A stretch of 64,000 nt of DNA, taken from the NCBI GenBank assembly GCA_963675785.1, contig OY776562.1:160001-224000 (forward strand), read 5' to 3'. The DNA is from Anaerolineae bacterium. GTDB taxonomy: Bacteria > Chloroflexota > Anaerolineae > UBA1429. The position numbers and the translations under genes were made by a program. Shown here piece by piece: positions 25,804 through 33,033 of the stretch (positions within the stretch are counted from its first letter, which is position 1; the number at the start of each line of letters is the position of its first letter). A model generated the notes under the pieces. It saw nothing but the letters and a program-made list of their open reading frames with translations. It was not told where the DNA came from and searched no databases.

Positions 25804-26292
25804 GTGGTTGAACAGACAACCGTAGTGCCCGAGGAGGCTATTGATTTCGCGCCCCTCGACAAGATTTTGGATGAGTTCGCTTCTATTAAGGGAGCTATCA
25901 TTCCCGTCTTGCAGCAGACGCAAGAAGTTTATGGCTTTCTTCCCGCAGAGGCGCTCACCTATATTGCAGAACGCATGCGCGTGCCCGTTAGCCAGGTATA
26001 TGGCGTAGCGACATTCTACGCTCAATTCTATCTTGAGAAGCGCGGGCGCCACATCGTCAAGATTTGTGACGGAACGGCCTGTCATGTCAAGGGCGCTGGT
26101 GAGATCGTCAAAGTTCTGGAAGAGGATCTCAAGATCAAGGCTGGCGAGACCACGCCTGACTATCGCGTCACGCTTGAGGTTGTTTACTGTCTTGGTTCTT
26201 GTGGCCTGGCGCCTGTAGCCGTGGTTGATGATGAAGTGGTTGGCCGCCTTGTGCCTGAAAAGGCCCGCAAGATTGTGAGCGAACTAGACTAG
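25804..26292 (+). CDS. hoxE: NuoE/HoxE/HydC-family [2Fe-2S] subunit
   Basis: GVATFYAQF, CDGTAC, CLGSC. Confidence 0.9.
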   Translation: MVEQTTVVPEEAIDFAPLDKILDEFASIKGAIIPVLQQTQEVYGFLPAEALTYIAERMRVPVSQVYGVATFYAQFYLEKRGRHIVKICDGTACHVKGAGEIVKVLEEDLKIKAGETTPDYRVTLEVVYCLGSCGLAPVAVVDDEVVGRLVPEKARKIVSELD

Positions 26293-26846
26293 TGCGAGAG
26301 CTTTCATTGCACATTCTTGACATTCTGGAGAATGCGCTGGAAGCAGGGGCGACCCTGGTTAACCTTGATATCGAGGAAAACAGCGCGGCTAATTTGTTGT
26401 CCTTTGAAATCAGTGACAACGGTCGCGGGATGGACGCCAAGACACTCGAGCAAGTACAGGATCCATTCTTTACAACACGCAAGACAAGGCGCGTAGGTCT
26501 GGGGATTCCTCTGCTGAGGGCGGCTGCTGAGCGCTGTGGCGGAGAGCTAGAGATTCAATCGCAAGTAAGTTTGGGAACTCGCGTGCATGTCACTTTTGAG
26601 CTGAACAATATTGATCGTGCACCGCTTGGTGATATGTTTGGAACCTTGATGGGGTTCGTTGTCTCATCATCCAATTGCGATCTAGTTTACCATCATCAGG
26701 TGGATGATCGATGCTTTGAGTTTAACACGCGGGAAATCCGCGGCGCGATTGGTGAGCGATCACTAGCAGAACCGTGCGTACGCAGTTGGTTGCGCGCTTT
26801 TATTGCAGAGGGGCTTTCAGAGCTATACGGCAAGTCACAGGAGTAA
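26292..26846 (+). CDS. Stand-alone HATPase_c (histidine-kinase-like ATPase) of hydrogenase clusters
   Basis: LDILENALEAGA, DNGRGM, DPFFTT, GLGIPL; no HisKA or sensor domain. Confidence 0.87.
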   Translation: MRELSLHILDILENALEAGATLVNLDIEENSAANLLSFEISDNGRGMDAKTLEQVQDPFFTTRKTRRVGLGIPLLRAAAERCGGELEIQSQVSLGTRVHVTFELNNIDRAPLGDMFGTLMGFVVSSSNCDLVYHHQVDDRCFEFNTREIRGAIGERSLAEPCVRSWLRAFIAEGLSELYGKSQE

Positions 26847-26850
26847 GGAA

Positions 26851-27225
26851 ATGCCAAAGGTCGGGTCAGTAGCAGATCTCCAAATACTGCGAGAGCAGCT
26901 GCAAAAAGATTTTTCACGTCGTACGGATACAAACACGGTTATTACCGTAGGTATGGGAACTTGCGGCATCGCTGCTGGCGCTCGTGATACGATGCAAGCC
27001 ATTTTGGAAGAGCTCGATAAGCGTGATATTACAGCTCATGTCCAAACGGTTGGCTGCATCGGTATGTGCTCCAGAGAGCCGCTGGTGGATATAGAACAGG
27101 CTGGCAAGCCGCGCATTTCGTACGGCAATATCACTCGAGATCGTGTGCCCCAACTAATCGAAGAACACCTGATCAAGGGTCAGGTGGTTGAAGAATGGGT
27201 TGTTGGCAAACTTCAACGAGACTAG
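26851..27225 (+). CDS. Thioredoxin-like [2Fe-2S] ferredoxin subunit (HydD/HndB-like)
   Basis: VGMGTCGIAAGA, VGCIGMCSREP; ATG 26851. Confidence 0.87.
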   Translation: MPKVGSVADLQILREQLQKDFSRRTDTNTVITVGMGTCGIAAGARDTMQAILEELDKRDITAHVQTVGCIGMCSREPLVDIEQAGKPRISYGNITRDRVPQLIEEHLIKGQVVEEWVVGKLQRD

Positions 27226-27313
27226 TCGGGAACGCTGTTGAGGCCCTTGGTACAGATTAGCACGGGGCCGCATATTATTGGAGCTATCGCAAGGATTCCA
27301 GGGAGGACACGTC

Positions 27314-30962: not shown

Positions 30963-31049
30963 CGCTCACCGGTTATAAGAGCGTACTTGACCCCGATTCT
31001 CGGTCATAGCACGCGCTCTTGAACCGAGAAGAACCTACGGAGAAGGTCA

Positions 31050-31595
31050 ATGGACAAGATCACCGTATGCACCGACTGGCTGGACGTTTGTTCCGGCTGC
31101 CATATGTCATTTCTCGATATCGATGAGCGTATCATTGAGCTGCTCAAGTACGTTCAGCTCTTGTCGTCGCCCATCACCGATCTCAAGCATCCGCCTGAGG
31201 GAGGCGTGGATATCGGCATTCTCACGGGTGCCGTGAGCAATGATCATCAAGAAGAAGTGGCTAAGCTCATGCGCTCTCGCTGCAAGACGCTCATCGCCCT
31301 TGGCGATTGCGCTGTCTTTGGCGGCATCTGCACCATGCGCAACATGTTTGATACGGAGGACGTGTTGAGCCGCGCCTATGTCGAGACCGAATCGACTGAG
31401 GCTGGCCAAGAGATACCGCGTTCACCAGAGATTGCCAAGTTGTTCCCAGAAGTCAAAGCGGTTAACCAGATCGTCAAAGTTGATATTCACATTCCGGGTT
31501 GCCCGCCTCCCGCTGATACCATTTGGTATGCGTTGTCAGAGCTCATTGCTGGCCGCACGCCGGTACTCACGGGCGAGCTGTTCACCTACGACTAA
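31050..31595 (+). CDS. hoxY: [NiFe]-hydrogenase small subunit, group 3 (HoxY-like)
   Basis: WLDVCSGCHMS, ALGDCA, IPGCPP; single proximal cluster, no Tat signal. Confidence 0.92.
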   Translation: MDKITVCTDWLDVCSGCHMSFLDIDERIIELLKYVQLLSSPITDLKHPPEGGVDIGILTGAVSNDHQEEVAKLMRSRCKTLIALGDCAVFGGICTMRNMFDTEDVLSRAYVETESTEAGQEIPRSPEIAKLFPEVKAVNQIVKVDIHIPGCPPPADTIWYALSELIAGRTPVLTGELFTYD

Positions 31596-31614
31596 CGAAT
31601 ACGGGAGAGTAAAT

Positions 31615-33033
31615 ATGGGGCAAAAGCTCACGATTGAACCCGTGACCCGTATCGAGGGGCACGCACGGGTTACCATTGAACTAGATGACGCCGGCAAGGT
31701 CGAGCAGAGCTATCTGCATATCGACCAGTTCAGAGGCTTTGAAAAGTTCTCTGAAGGCCGGCCCTTTTATGAAATGCCAGTGATTACACCGCGCATCTGC
31801 GGCATCTGCCCGGTCAGCCATCACCTGGCTTCGGCCAAGGCCTGTGACCAGATCGCCGGGCTAGAGCCAACGCCGACAGCCAACAAGCTGCGCGAGCTCT
31901 TGCACATGGGCCAGATCGTTCAGTCGCATTCGCTGCATTTCTTCCACCTGGCTTCACCCGACTTGTTGTTGGGCTTTGATGCTGATCCCGCGATTCGTAA
32001 CGTGGTCGGCCTCATTGAGACGCAGCCAGAGCTAGCAATCAAGGCCGTCAAGTTGCGCAAGTACGGCCAAGAGCTTATCCGTATACTCAGTGGACGACGT
32101 TTGCACATGCACTGGGCCGTGCCCGGTGGCGTGGCTGCCCCGTTCAAGCAGGAGGATCGCGATCTTGTCCTTTCGCAGGCTGATGAGATGATCGGCTATA
32201 TACAGGATGGGATTGCTCTGATCAAGGGTTGGCTGGCAGCGAACCAGGATGTGGTGCGGAATTTTGCCAATTTCCCATCCAAGTACCTGGGCATGTCTCG
32301 CGATGGCGCACTTGAGCTCTATGACGGTCCCATTCGTCTCATCGACGAAAAGGGTGGCTTGGTCAACGAGTTCGATAACAAGGACTATCTCCAGTTCATT
32401 GGCGAGCACACCGAGGATTGGTCATACTTAAAGTTCCCGTACTATAAAGAACTTGGCCATCCTGATGGTTACTATCGCGTGGCGCCGTTGGCCCGTTTGA
32501 ACATCGCCGACCACATCAGCACGCCGTTGGCTAACGCCGAGCTGACAGAGTGGAAGGCCTTGGCGGATGGCCCCGTCGAACCGACGCTATACTATCACTA
32601 TGCCCGCCTTATCGAGGATCTGTACGGCATGGAGCGTGTGGTCGAGCTCTGTAACGAGCCGGATATCCTCTCGCAGGACATCCGCAATACCGGCGGCCAG
32701 ATCACCGGCGAGGGCGTGGGCTGCATTGAGGCTCCGCGTGGCACCCTGTGGCATCACTACAAGACCGACGAAGACGGCATCATCACGGCTGTGAACCTCA
32801 TTGTGGCTACCGGCAACAATAACTGGGCCATGAGCCATGCTGTGGATATGGTTGCCAAGACTTTTGTGGATGGCAACAACCTGACTGAGGGCATGTTGAA
32901 CCGTGTCGAGGCCGCTATTCGCGCCTACGACCCCTGTCTCTCTTGTTCTACCCATGCTATCGGGCAGATGCCGTTTGTGGTCGATATCGTCGATGCCAAC
33001 GGCACGGTGGTGAACCAGGTCGTTAGGGACTAG
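31615..33033 (+). CDS. hoxH: [NiFe]-hydrogenase large subunit, group 3 (HoxH-like)
   Basis: TRIEGH, L1 RICGICPVSH, EAPRG, L2 DPCLSCSTH plus a cleavable C-terminal extension; ATG 31615. Confidence 0.95.
   Translation: MGQKLTIEPVTRIEGHARVTIELDDAGKVEQSYLHIDQFRGFEKFSEGRPFYEMPVITPRICGICPVSHHLASAKACDQIAGLEPTPTANKLRELLHMGQIVQSHSLHFFHLASPDLLLGFDADPAIRNVVGLIETQPELAIKAVKLRKYGQELIRILSGRRLHMHWAVPGGVAAPFKQEDRDLVLSQADEMIGYIQDGIALIKGWLAANQDVVRNFANFPSKYLGMSRDGALELYDGPIRLIDEKGGLVNEFDNKDYLQFIGEHTEDWSYLKFPYYKELGHPDGYYRVAPLARLNIADHISTPLANAELTEWKALADGPVEPTLYYHYARLIEDLYGMERVVELCNEPDILSQDIRNTGGQITGEGVGCIEAPRGTLWHHYKTDEDGIITAVNLIVATGNNNWAMSHAVDMVAKTFVDGNNLTEGMLNRVEAAIRAYDPCLSCSTHAIGQMPFVVDIVDANGTVVNQVVRD

What the first reader, a model, noticed from the sequence alone, without database searches (positions are those of the whole stretch)
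25804..33033. Candidate electron-bifurcating [NiFe] hydrogenase (HydABC(D)-SL type) built on a [FeFe]-hydrogenase gene scaffold
Seen: gene order hydC, HATPase, Trx-like ferredoxin, hydB, NuoG-like, hoxY, hoxH. HydB carries extra N-terminal [2Fe-2S] and C-terminal 2x[4Fe-4S] domains, the ADEGDPGAFM signature, and a Cys...H-x5-C-x4-C set (EDTCMV / HITDKRCAALQC). The NuoG-like subunit has five Fe-S motifs but no H-cluster. Known: hydC-kinase-hydD-hydB-hydA is the layout of Thermoanaerobacter-type bifurcating [FeFe] hydrogenases, and Acetomicrobium mobile HydABCSL is a bifurcating [NiFe] enzyme with an H-cluster-less HydA. Inferred: a six-subunit ferredoxin+NAD-bifurcating [NiFe] hydrogenase that standard pipelines would label Hox or Nuo. 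Caveat: the SLBB loop reads GGPLGG rather than GGPSG.
Basis: partly seen in the sequence, partly recalled or inferred. Interest (0 to 1): 0.85.

Follow-up and report, generated by a model that had tools for sequence, protein, structure and literature searches.

The report
Electron-bifurcating NiFe hydrogenase operon, Anaerolineae

Summary
Window 25804-33033 (+) carries intact hydC, a HATPase gene (hisK), hydD, hydB, a NuoG-like hydA, hydS and hydL, followed by the protease hydP and hypABFCDE.

All five structural proteins match the chains of PDB 7T2R/7T30, the Acetomicrobium mobile electron-bifurcating NiFe-HydABCSL. It is the best hit for B (924 bits), L (614), A (278) and S (192), and the third hit for C (154).

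HydB has every cluster site said to separate bifurcating from non-bifurcating relatives (B2 Cys/His site, B3/B4, B5), the AFM motif and the signature Phe. The one deviation is GGPLG for GGPSG, which is a trait of the whole lineage.

The A. mobile operon also contains hisK, hydD and hydP, so the "[FeFe] scaffold" layout is not new either.

Verdict: a new member of a known kind, in an Anaerolineae (Chloroflexota) genome.
- The "six-subunit" claim stays open. A. mobile's purified enzyme lacks HydD, but a complex prediction supports HydD docking on HydB/HydC (score 0.72, best of 3 controls 0.00).
- The published survey placed NiFe-Bfu in a small Synergistetes sub-clade. Here 39 of 80 related genome loci carry a HydB beside hydASL.
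- Many relatives carry a HydB fused to a GltD-like module instead of the ferredoxin-like end.

Interest is modest.

The parts
23249..23689 (+). DRTGG-domain protein, possible first gene of the cluster. A promoter-like site lies at 23214-23241.
   Evidence: Pfam DRTGG, E 6.8e-06. TTGACA-16-TATACT with TG, 11 of 12 matches; the total number of promoter-like sites in the region is not above the shuffles.
23721..24635 (+). CBS-pair plus HATPase_c_2 protein (anti-sigma-type kinase-like), a conserved accessory gene
   Evidence: Pfam. Found upstream of hydC in 16 of 80 related loci together with DRTGG and PHP.
24645..25001 (+). Second DRTGG-domain protein, accessory
   Evidence: Pfam; syntenic in relatives.
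24998..25759 (+). PHP-domain protein (putative phosphoesterase), accessory
   Evidence: Pfam PHP; syntenic in relatives.
25804..26292 (+). HydC (BfuC, NuoE-like), with the C1 [2Fe-2S] ligands C88, C93, C129, C133
   Evidence: Pfam 2Fe-2S_thioredx, 170 bits. PDB 7t2r_C 154 bits, behind 8a6t_C (165) and 9bov_C (158). Cys positions, invariant in 20 sequences.
26292..26846 (+). HisK: a stand-alone HATPase_c protein with no HisKA/DHp domain detected. Regulatory or unknown role.
   Evidence: Pfam HATPase_c, 59.6 bits. The same gene sits in the A. mobile operon and is not part of the holoenzyme (PMC9304861 Fig. 1 legend; PMC8880783 section 6).
26851..27225 (+). HydD: thioredoxin-like ferredoxin with only three Cys (38, 69, 73). 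Possible loosely bound sixth subunit or maturation factor.
   Evidence: Pfam 2Fe-2S_thioredx, 28 bits. Alignment of 23 orthologues. Complex prediction score 0.72 against best control 0.00.
27314..29170 (+). HydB (BfuB), 618 aa. B5 [2Fe-2S]: C13, C18, C50, C54. FMN/NADH site with AFM (204-206) and F284. GGPLG at 399-403. B1: C457, C460, C463, C503. B2 site: C440, T478, H527, C533, C538. B3/B4: two CxxCxxCxxxC motifs at 551-561 and 581-591.
   Evidence: Pfam. 7t2r_B, 924 bits, E 4.7e-277, 595 residues aligned without gaps. Motifs.
29289..30962 (+). HydA (BfuA), 557 aa, NuoG-like. Clusters A1 (C37, C48, C51, C65), A2 (H99, C101, C104, C110), A3/A4 (C149-C159, C192-C202) and A5 (C228, C231, C235, C263). 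Trimmed molybdopterin-like C-terminal domain, no H-cluster domain.
   Evidence: Pfam. 7t2r_A, 278 bits over residues 1-323. AlphaFold2 model pLDDT 89.9. Foldseek best hit 7t30_A, E 1e-47, TM 0.87, 30% identity over the whole length. Ligands invariant in 37 sequences.
31050..31595 (+). HydS, small subunit, 181 aa, with one proximal [4Fe-4S] (C14, C17, C87, C151)
   Evidence: Pfam Oxidored_q6. 7t2r_E, 192 bits, chain of 179 aa. Cys positions.
31615..33033 (+). HydL, [NiFe] large subunit, 472 aa. Motifs RICGICPVSH (C62, C65) and DPCLSCSTH (C441, C444), plus a 25-residue C-terminal extension.
   Evidence: Pfam NiFeSe_Hases. 7t2r_D, 614 bits, against 5xf9_D 443 and 5odc_F 427. Motifs.
33124..33609 (+). 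HydP, hydrogenase maturation endopeptidase
   Evidence: NCBIfam TIGR00072, 66 bits, over its cut-off. A hydP gene is named in the A. mobile operon (PMC8880783 section 6).
33617..39354 (+). hypA, hypB, hypF, hypC, hypD, hypE: [NiFe] cofactor maturation genes
   Evidence: Pfam HypA, cobW, HypF domains, HupF_HypC, HypD, AIRS/AIRS_C.

Best explanation
The cluster encodes a cytoplasmic, FMN-based electron-bifurcating (in vivo probably confurcating) [NiFe]-hydrogenase of the NiFe-HydABCSL type, also called NiFe-Bfu, Type 3. It is orthologous to the Acetomicrobium mobile enzyme.

Inferred mechanism, by homology to the solved enzyme:
- HydL makes or splits H2 at the NiFe site.
- Electrons pass through the single HydS cluster and the HydA clusters to B1 and the FMN of HydB, where NAD(H) binds.
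- The low-potential branch runs from FMN through C1 in HydC and the B2 site to B3/B4 in the ferredoxin-like C-terminal domain of HydB, where ferredoxin docks.
- Net reaction: NADH + 2 reduced ferredoxin + 3 H+ <-> NAD+ + 2 oxidised ferredoxin + 2 H2.

Shown here: homology, domain content, ligand conservation, synteny and fold. Inferred: the coupling itself, the direction in vivo and the subunit count. The catalytic core is five subunits. HydD may associate. HisK, the CBS-kinase, the DRTGG proteins and the PHP protein are probably regulatory.
For: 1. phmmer against the PDB. 7T2R/7T30 chains are the top hit for HydB (924 bits), HydL (614), HydA (278) and HydS (192), and the third hit for HydC (154).
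2. The nine best HydB hits (662-924 bits) include chains named bifurcating HydB and NfnB, one chain named HoxF and two with generic NADH-dehydrogenase names. NAD-dependent formate dehydrogenase beta scores 438 and NuoF about 375.
3. The B2 ligands of A. mobile (C438, H525, C531, C536) align to C440, H527, C533, C538. The semi-conserved C476 is Thr here, which the paper lists as the alternative (PMC8880783 section 9).
4. The B3/B4 and B5 motifs are present. PMC9304861 states that non-bifurcating homologues lack B2-B5.
5. The AFM motif and the signature Phe are present. Paralogues without the B2 ligands, and C. necator HoxF, read GTFK and Tyr at these places.
6. The HydA model matches 7T30_A over its full length, TM 0.87.
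7. The gene order hydC-hisK-hydD-hydB-hydA-hydS-hydL fits the A. mobile gene numbers Anamo_1675-1678 and 1681 for the five subunits, with the extra genes HydD, HydP and HisK (PMC8880783 section 6).
8. Genome context: this is the only Complex1_51K (NuoF/RnfC-like) gene, there is no [FeFe] hydrogenase (94.8% completeness, one contig), and there are two POR-like genes that could supply reduced ferredoxin.
Against: - One of the three published signature motifs deviates. GGPSG reads GGPLG, and GFPTG reads GFLTG, in the window and in the Anaerolineae-type HydBs read. The papers call GGPSG conserved in all bifurcating enzymes (PMC7311640; PMC12018979).
- HydL is only moderately closer to Synergistota HydL (56%) than to group 3d HoxH (46-49%). 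The quick HydL tree leaves Synergistota, the two HoxH references and the window's 75-row clade unresolved at the base.
- In the HydB core tree, cyanobacterial HoxF sits in a basal polytomy of the ingroup on a long branch.
- HydC scores slightly better against two other Bfu-type C subunits than against A. mobile HydC.
- No biochemical data exist for any Chloroflexota enzyme in the papers I searched.
Confidence: 0.8

Rival explanations
1. The holoenzyme has six subunits, with HydD as a stable Fe-S subunit docked on the HydB N-terminal domain and HydC. This is a variant of the best explanation, not exclusive of it.
For: - complex prediction with HydB + HydC and HydD as partner: the model supports binding but does not show it. 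Score 0.72; best of 3 controls 0.00. The mark was reached by 116 of 157 solved complexes and 2 of 215 mismatched pairs. The runs agree in at least 40% of contacts and the partner's pLDDT is at least 79. My own alignments and three chains were used, so the counts hold only roughly.
- Predicted contacts include HydB 48-56 (B5 loop) and HydC 130-148 (C1 loop).
- hydD lies between hisK and hydB in 19 of 80 loci that hold hydC, hisK, hydD and hydB.
- The A. woodii enzyme is described as tetrameric HydABCD in a passage of PMC5736913.
Against: - The purified, active A. mobile enzyme has five subunits. [quoted passage not shown]
- HydD has only three Cys, and the Coprothermobacterota/Lithacetigenota HydD orthologues lack them.
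- HydD is a paralogue of the HydB N-terminal domain and of the HydC fold, so the model may place it by likeness to solved Trx-like contacts.
Confidence: 0.3
2. It is a non-bifurcating, NAD(H)-only bidirectional hydrogenase of the Hox (group 3d) kind, which is what annotation pipelines call it.
For: - HydL is 45.7% identical to C. necator HoxH and 48.8% to Acaryochloris HoxH.
- The base of the HydL tree is unresolved.
- GGPSG is not intact.
- NCBIfam gives HoxE and HoxU as strong sub-threshold hits for HydC and for the N-terminal half of HydA.
Against: - C. necator HoxF lacks the B2 ligands and the C-terminal 2x[4Fe-4S] domain, reads GTFK and Tyr, and sits on a very long branch.
- HoxU is about 235-240 aa, against 557 aa for HydA with A5 and a C-terminal domain.
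- A 2026 preprint reports that even cyanobacterial HoxEFUYH confurcates (passages of 10.64898/2026.06.25.734504), so likeness to that branch does not argue for an NAD-only enzyme.
Confidence: 0.1
3. The low-potential branch serves an acceptor other than ferredoxin, for example NADP, as the GltD-fused HydB of close relatives suggests. Alternatively the Leu variant loosens the coupling.
For: - The window's short-form HydB clade (9 rows, 99/99) nests within a 16-row clade (98/98) whose other members carry Fer4_20 + Pyr_redox_2 in place of the ferredoxin-like domain.
- GGPLG and GFLTG are shared by both forms.
Against: - The window's own HydB has the canonical C-terminal 2x[4Fe-4S] domain, which aligns without gaps to the A. 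mobile and FeFe-type HydB C-terminal domains.
- No Pyr_redox domain occurs in any gene of the cluster.
Confidence: 0.05

Closest known systems
Acetomicrobium mobile NiFe-HydABCSL (NiFe-Bfu, Type 3 Bfu enzyme; PDB 7T2R, 7T30; Feng et al. 2022, PMC8880783)
   Same: - Same five structural subunits and same operon order, including hisK, hydD and hydP.
- HydB aligns over 595 residues without gaps (924 bits) with B1-B5, AFM and the signature Phe.
- HydS has one cluster.
- HydA is NuoG-like with A1-A5 and no H-cluster.

   Different: - The host phylum is Chloroflexota (Anaerolineae), not Synergistota.
- HydA is 557 aa against 692 aa. Only the first 323 residues align by sequence and overall identity is 30%.
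- GGPLG replaces GGPSG, and Thr stands at the semi-conserved B2 position.
- HydL is about 56% identical to Synergistota relatives and lies in a separate, well supported clade.
- The DRTGG / CBS-kinase / DRTGG / PHP genes upstream were not checked in A. mobile.
Electron-bifurcating [FeFe]-hydrogenase HydABC(D), e.g. PDB 7Q4V, 8A6T, 7P5H
   Same: Homologous HydB (697-801 bits) and HydC, with the same B2-B5 and C1 sites and the same FMN-pocket motifs. The hisK/hydD accessory genes recall the Thermoanaerobacter-type operon; that layout is recalled, not tested here.
   Different: The catalytic site differs. There is no H-cluster domain in HydA and none in the genome. A [NiFe] HydSL module is attached through a NuoG-like HydA.
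Group 3d NAD-linked [NiFe]-hydrogenases HoxFUYH and HoxEFUYH (C. necator pHG1, H. thermoluteolus 5XF9, cyanobacteria)
   Same: Homologous large and small subunits (HoxH 46-49% identity; 5xf9_D 443 bits; 5xf9_C 127 bits) and a NuoEFG-like diaphorase. Cyanobacterial HoxF shares AFM, the Phe and GGPSG.
   Different: HoxF lacks the B2 Cys/His ligands and the C-terminal 2x[4Fe-4S] domain. HoxU is a 235-240 aa stub of HydA. C. necator HoxF reads GTFK and Tyr.

Membership tests
NiFe-HydABCSL / NiFe-Bfu (Type 3 BfuABC enzyme) | BfuB with FMN/NADH domain, SLBB and B1 [4Fe-4S] | tested here: met
   Pfam Complex1_51K (149 bits), SLBB, NADH_4Fe-4S (101 bits). B1 ligands C457, C460, C463, C503.
NiFe-HydABCSL / NiFe-Bfu (Type 3 BfuABC enzyme) | B2 site ligands (A. 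mobile C438, H525, C531, C536; C476 may be Cys or Thr). The His is absent from non-bifurcating homologues. | tested here: met
   C440, H527, C533, C538, with T478 at the semi-conserved place. Definition from PMC8880783 section 9 and PMC9304861 section 6.
NiFe-HydABCSL / NiFe-Bfu (Type 3 BfuABC enzyme) | C-terminal ferredoxin-like domain with B3/B4 and N-terminal Trx-like domain with B5 | tested here: met
   Two CxxCxxCxxxC motifs at 551-561 and 581-591; C13, C18, C50, C54; Pfam Fer4 and 2Fe-2S_thioredx.
NiFe-HydABCSL / NiFe-Bfu (Type 3 BfuABC enzyme) | FMN-pocket signatures AFM and the single Phe (A. mobile A202, M204, F282) | tested here: met
   ADEGDPGAFMDR and GAGAFVCGEE. Paralogues without the B2 ligands, and C. 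necator HoxF, read GTFK and GAGAY.
NiFe-HydABCSL / NiFe-Bfu (Type 3 BfuABC enzyme) | GGPSG motif in the SLBB loop | tested here: not met
   The window reads GGPLG. So do 18 of the 37 HydB-like rows printed, all from the Anaerolineae-type clade or its neighbour L032. Two more rows of that clade gave a stray regex hit elsewhere in the protein and were not read at this site. Bellilinea has GGPMG. Synergistota, Poribacteria and A. marina HoxF have GGPSG. Gly-Gly-Pro is kept; only Ser changes.
NiFe-HydABCSL / NiFe-Bfu (Type 3 BfuABC enzyme) | BfuC with C1 [2Fe-2S] | tested here: met
   C88, C93, C129, C133, invariant in 20 sequences.
NiFe-HydABCSL / NiFe-Bfu (Type 3 BfuABC enzyme) | BfuA with clusters A1-A5 (A3 present) and no H-cluster, structurally like 7T2R chain A | tested here: met
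   Five ligand sets invariant in 37 sequences. No Fe_hyd_lg_C domain. Foldseek best hit 7t30_A, TM 0.87. NDUFS1/NuoG chains score nearly as well (TM 0.81-0.87).
NiFe-HydABCSL / NiFe-Bfu (Type 3 BfuABC enzyme) | HydS with a single [4Fe-4S]; HydL with the two CxxC NiFe motifs | tested here: met
   HydS is 181 aa with C14, C17, C87, C151. HydL has RICGICPVSH and DPCLSCSTH. 7t2r_E and 7t2r_D are the best PDB hits.
NiFe-HydABCSL / NiFe-Bfu (Type 3 BfuABC enzyme) | H2 oxidation that reduces ferredoxin only when NAD+ is present, and the reverse | not testable with these tools
   Needs a biochemical assay. Shown for A. mobile only (PMC8880783 section 6).
Group 3d Hox NAD-reducing hydrogenase (HoxFUYH type) | Diaphorase HoxF without B2-B4, and a short HoxU (about 240 aa) | tested here: not met
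   HydB carries B2-B5. HydA is 557 aa with A5 and a C-terminal domain, against annotated HoxF and HoxU of C. necator and A. marina.
Bifurcating [FeFe]-hydrogenase HydABC | H-cluster domain (Fe_hyd_lg_C) in HydA | tested here: not met
   No PF02906 hit in HydA or anywhere in the genome (0 candidates, genome 94.8% complete, one contig).

The most novel reading that the evidence does not exclude
In this Anaerolineae lineage the NiFe-Bfu enzyme may be a modular six-part machine.
- HydD, a three-Cys thioredoxin-like protein, would dock next to the B5 and C1 clusters as a real subunit.
- The end of the low-potential branch would be exchangeable. The window keeps the ferredoxin-binding 2x[4Fe-4S] domain, while sister lineages carry a GltD/NfnB-like FAD-NAD(P)H module on the same HydB core.
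- The clade-wide GGPLG and GFLTG changes in the flavin pocket would mark altered coupling.
Probability: 0.2. Interest if true: 0.6.

Novelty: new member of a known kind. Interest (0 to 1): 0.35.

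Why it matters
The prototype was described in 2022 as a new type of bifurcating hydrogenase. The family survey that followed excluded metagenomic data and placed NiFe-Bfu in a small Synergistetes sub-clade, 6 of 1558 BfuB sequences, plus some Halorhabdus (PMC9304861).

This window and its relatives suggest the same enzyme is a common hydrogenase of Anaerolineae, which are abundant fermenters and syntrophs in digesters and sediments. 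In this genome it is the only NADH-linked hydrogenase candidate. It is routinely annotated as Hox or NuoF.

Reading it as a confurcating enzyme changes the H2 threshold and the energy budget assumed in metabolic models of these organisms. The window itself adds no new mechanism.

Tried and rejected
- Longest-ORF starts were rejected for HydL (31378, overlaps hydS), HydB (27278) and HydD (26803), in favour of starts that fit the orthologues and an RBS.
- A first Pfam call failed on a frame with stop codons. It was corrected.
- I tried to classify HydL as group 3c or 3d. NCBIfam gives VhuA at 442 bits, below its cut-off of 800. PDB scores for a 3d chain (443) and a 3c chain (427) are nearly equal. 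The quick tree does not resolve the base. HydDB itself could not be run.
Cyanobacterial HoxF is not cleanly excluded from the ingroup. I judged this by architecture instead.
- T. maritima HydB, E. coli NuoF and the A. mobile sequences could not be added to the trees as rows, because no tool returned them as usable sequences. Synergistota loci L030, L033 and L036 stood in for A. mobile.
- Literature searches for a prior report in Anaerolineae found no such report. Searches: 'Anaerolineae + bifurcating + NiFe + HydABC', 2 papers (passages of both read); 'HydABCSL', 9 papers (listing); 'NiFe-Bfu', 4 papers (listing). The library lacks most subscription journals.
- The search for 'HydD + HydABC + electron-bifurcating + cryo-EM' led nowhere. 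In PMC9431212 the term matched 'HydDB'.
- The search of earlier findings returned nothing for this place.

Full report
**1. What is there**

On the + strand between 25804 and 33033 lie seven intact genes, separated by -1 to 118 bases.
- HydC (NuoE-like): 25804-26292.
- A 184-aa HATPase_c protein with no HisKA domain detected ("HisK"): 26292-26846.
- A 124-aa thioredoxin-like ferredoxin (HydD): 26851-27225.
- HydB: 27314-29170.
- A NuoG-like HydA: 29289-30962.
- The small subunit HydS: 31050-31595.
- The [NiFe] large subunit HydL: 31615-33033.

Pfam and NCBIfam give the expected domains. Three longest-ORF starts should move to later start codons. That of HydL (31378) overlaps hydS. An RBS-like GGGAGG precedes the HydB start at 27314 and the HydC start at 25804.

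Downstream follow the endopeptidase HydP and hypA, B, F, C, D, E. Upstream lie DRTGG, CBS+HATPase_c_2, DRTGG and PHP genes. A strong promoter-like site sits at 23214-23241, but the total number of such sites in the region is not above chance.

**2. What it is**

A phmmer search of each protein against all PDB chains puts the A. mobile electron-bifurcating NiFe-HydABCSL (7T2R/7T30) first for four of five subunits.

| Subunit | Score against 7T2R | Next best or comparison |
|---|---|---|
| HydB | 924 bits, E 4.7e-277, 595 residues, no gap | see below |
| HydL | 614 bits | 443 for the H. thermoluteolus-type NAD-reducing enzyme; 427 for an Mvh large subunit |
| HydA | 278 bits | - |
| HydS | 192 bits | - |
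| HydC | 154 bits, third | two other Bfu-type C subunits at 165 and 158 |

The nine best HydB hits (662-924 bits) include chains named bifurcating HydB and NfnB, one chain named HoxF and two with generic NADH-dehydrogenase names. NAD-dependent formate dehydrogenase beta scores 438 and complex I NuoF about 375.

**3. Diagnostic residues**

Feng et al. (PMC8880783, sections 7, 9 and 10 read) and Schut et al. (PMC9304861, passages read) state that clusters B2-B5 are absent from non-bifurcating homologues. They also state that AFM, one Phe and GGPSG mark the flavin pocket of bifurcating enzymes. The same motifs appear in passages of PMC7311640 and PMC12018979.

The window's HydB, in 618-aa numbering, has the following:
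- B5: C13, C18, C50, C54.
- AFM within ADEGDPGAFMDR.
- F284 within GAGAFVCGEE.
- B1: C457, C460, C463, C503.
- The B2 site: C440, H527, C533, C538, with Thr at the position the paper calls "either Cys or Thr".
- Two CxxCxxCxxxC motifs for B3/B4.

Paralogues in related loci that lack the B2 ligands, and C. necator HoxF, read GTFK, Tyr and GGSSG / GGAAG / SGPSG instead.

It is not peculiar to this genome. It occurs in 18 of the 37 HydB-like rows printed, all of them from the Anaerolineae-type clade or its neighbour L032, in both short and long forms. Two further rows of that clade gave a stray regex hit and were not read at this site. Bellilinea has GGPMG. Synergistota and Poribacteria have GGPSG.

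**4. HydA**

The five Fe-S ligand sets are invariant in an alignment of 37 orthologues. The protein is 557 aa against 692 in A. mobile, and sequence alignment stops at residue 323.

An AlphaFold2 model (pLDDT 89.9, pTM 0.87) finds 7T30_A and 7T2R_A as the best structural matches over the whole length: E 1e-47, TM 0.87 normalised on the query, 30% identity. Complex I 75-kDa/NuoG subunits follow at TM 0.81-0.87. So HydA is a trimmed NuoG-like connector.

Lengths of 550-585 aa are the common form in relatives. The 690-aa form is the Synergistota one. No H-cluster domain is present in HydA or in the genome.

**5. Operon layout**

The A. mobile enzyme is encoded by Anamo_1675-1678 and 1681. The operon also holds HydD, HydP and HisK, which are not in the purified enzyme (PMC8880783 section 6; PMC9304861 Fig. 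1 legend). The hydC-hisK-hydD-hydB-hydA-hydS-hydL order in the window fits that numbering. The "[FeFe] scaffold" is therefore a property of the known prototype.

**6. Relatives**

The 120 closest HydL clusters (70-94% identity) are named, where named at all, Anaerolineae or Chloroflexi "Ni/Fe hydrogenase subunit alpha" or "NAD-reducing hydrogenase large subunit".

A scan of one genome per species returned 80 loci. tblastn with the window's proteins gave these counts.

| Locus content | Loci (of 80) |
|---|---|
| HydB upstream of hydASL | 37 |
| HydB downstream | 2 |
| No HydB within at least 7 kb upstream | 17 |
| Too little upstream DNA to tell | 24 |

Sixteen loci share the whole ten-gene order from the CBS-kinase gene to hydL. 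Carriers include Anaerolineae, Dehalococcoidia, Bellilinea caldifistulae, Coprothermobacterota, Lithacetigenota, Poribacteria and Synergistota.

In a quick HydL tree the window lies in a 75-row clade (SH-aLRT 100). Synergistota, C. necator HoxH and Acaryochloris HoxH join it in an unresolved base.

In HydB core trees the window sits in a clade of short-form Anaerolineae HydBs (99/99). C. necator HoxF is on a very long branch. Cyanobacterial HoxF is not cleanly outside the ingroup. That cyanobacterial HoxF has AFM, Phe and GGPSG but lacks the B2 ligands and the C-terminal domain. A 2026 preprint reports that the Synechocystis HoxEFUYH enzyme confurcates (passages of 10.64898/2026.06.25.734504).

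**7. Mechanism and physiology (inferred)**

By homology, electrons run from NiFe through S1 and the HydA clusters to B1 and FMN. The high-potential branch goes to NAD+. The low-potential branch goes through C1 and B2 to B3/B4 and on to ferredoxin.

The genome is 3.22 Mb in one contig, 94.8% complete.
- It has one Complex1_51K gene, which is this HydB. So there is no NuoF or RnfC paralogue.
- It has no [FeFe] hydrogenase.
- It has two POR-like genes.
- It has two other NiFe large-subunit-like genes elsewhere.

The likely role is H2 evolution from NADH plus reduced ferredoxin during fermentation.

**8. The sixth subunit**

A complex prediction of HydB + HydC with HydD as the scored partner supports binding but does not show it. 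The score was 0.72 and the best of 3 controls 0.00. The mark was reached by 116 of 157 solved complexes and 2 of 215 mismatched pairs. The runs agree in at least 40% of contacts, and the partner's pLDDT is at least 79. My own alignments and three chains were used, so the counts hold only roughly.

The predicted contacts touch the B5 loop of HydB and the C1 loop of HydC.

Three points count against a stable sixth subunit.
- The A. mobile enzyme purifies without HydD.
- HydD has three Cys only.
- HydD is a paralogue of domains already in the complex, so likeness may drive the score.

I put a stable sixth subunit at about 0.3.

**9. Verdict**

The enzyme kind is known, solved and assayed, so this is a new member in a new host phylum, not a new system. 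The points of modest novelty are:
- the much wider distribution than the published survey found;
- the clade-wide GGPLG variant;
- the possible HydD association;
- in relatives, not in this window, the GltD-fused HydB and the stand-alone hydASL forms.

Noticed in passing
Related loci L002, L005, L007, L018, L019, L023, L024, L026, L032, L034, L038, L047, L049, L050, L053 (HydB ORFs, e.g. L002:3907-6978): In 15 related loci HydB is 1012-1057 aa. The C-terminal 2x[4Fe-4S] ferredoxin-like domain is replaced by Fer4_20 + Pyr_redox_2, a GltD/NfnB-like FAD-NAD(P)H module (Pfam run on three of the 15; the others judged by length and a tblastn match that ends near residue 562). All 15 lie beside hydA-hydS-hydL. 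The window's short form nests among these long forms in the HydB tree. I found no paper describing it ('HydB + GltD + hydrogenase' search, listing only).
   Followed up: partly
Related loci L052, L054-L056, L059-L061, L063, L064, L068, L069, L072, L074, L078, L080, also L006 and L039: 17 of 80 loci have hydA-hydS-hydL(-hydP) but no HydB or HydC within at least 7 kb upstream. They come from Dictyoglomota, Caldisericota, Desulfomonilia and unclassified bacteria. In L063 the upstream genes are hypA and an Mrp/NUBPL ATPase, then housekeeping genes. This may be a stand-alone HydASL hydrogenase, or the BC genes may lie elsewhere.
   Followed up: partly
Own genome G000:C1:841166-844681 (L083) and G000:C1:1679787-1680032 (L082): A second group 3 [NiFe] hydrogenase: large subunit 433 aa and small subunit about 237 aa, with best NCBIfam hits VhuA and VhuG far below their cut-offs. 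There is also a third NiFeSe_Hases-like ORF of 364 aa, possibly NuoD-like or group 4.
   Followed up: partly
window 39348-41009: A formate/nitrite transporter (FocA-like) and FdhD follow hypE directly. No formate dehydrogenase gene is in the window. G+C rises to 0.59-0.60 across 34-42 kb, against 0.50-0.55 elsewhere.
   Followed up: no
window 23249-25759: DRTGG, CBS+HATPase_c_2, DRTGG and PHP genes precede hydC. The last three are conserved in the same order in 16 of 80 related loci. Their role, possibly regulatory phospho-signalling, is unknown.
   Followed up: partly
window 26851-27225 and alignment A2: HydD has three Cys (38, 69, 73) where the homologous HydB N-terminal domain has four. The HydD orthologues of Coprothermobacterota and Lithacetigenota (L047, L049, L053) have none of them.
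   Followed up: partly
L091:1869-3524 (Acaryochloris marina HoxF) in the HydB trees: Cyanobacterial HoxF falls within or at the base of the HydB ingroup, not with C. necator HoxF. It shares AFM, the Phe and GGPSG but lacks the B2 ligands. It sits on a long branch, so the placement is unsure.
   Followed up: partly
window 45137-48443 (- strand): An ORF with IstB_IS21-like and DnaA-type ATPase domains, then a DnaB_2 (DnaD-like) protein and the replicative DnaB helicase. This looks like an ordinary helicase-loader set.
   Followed up: no
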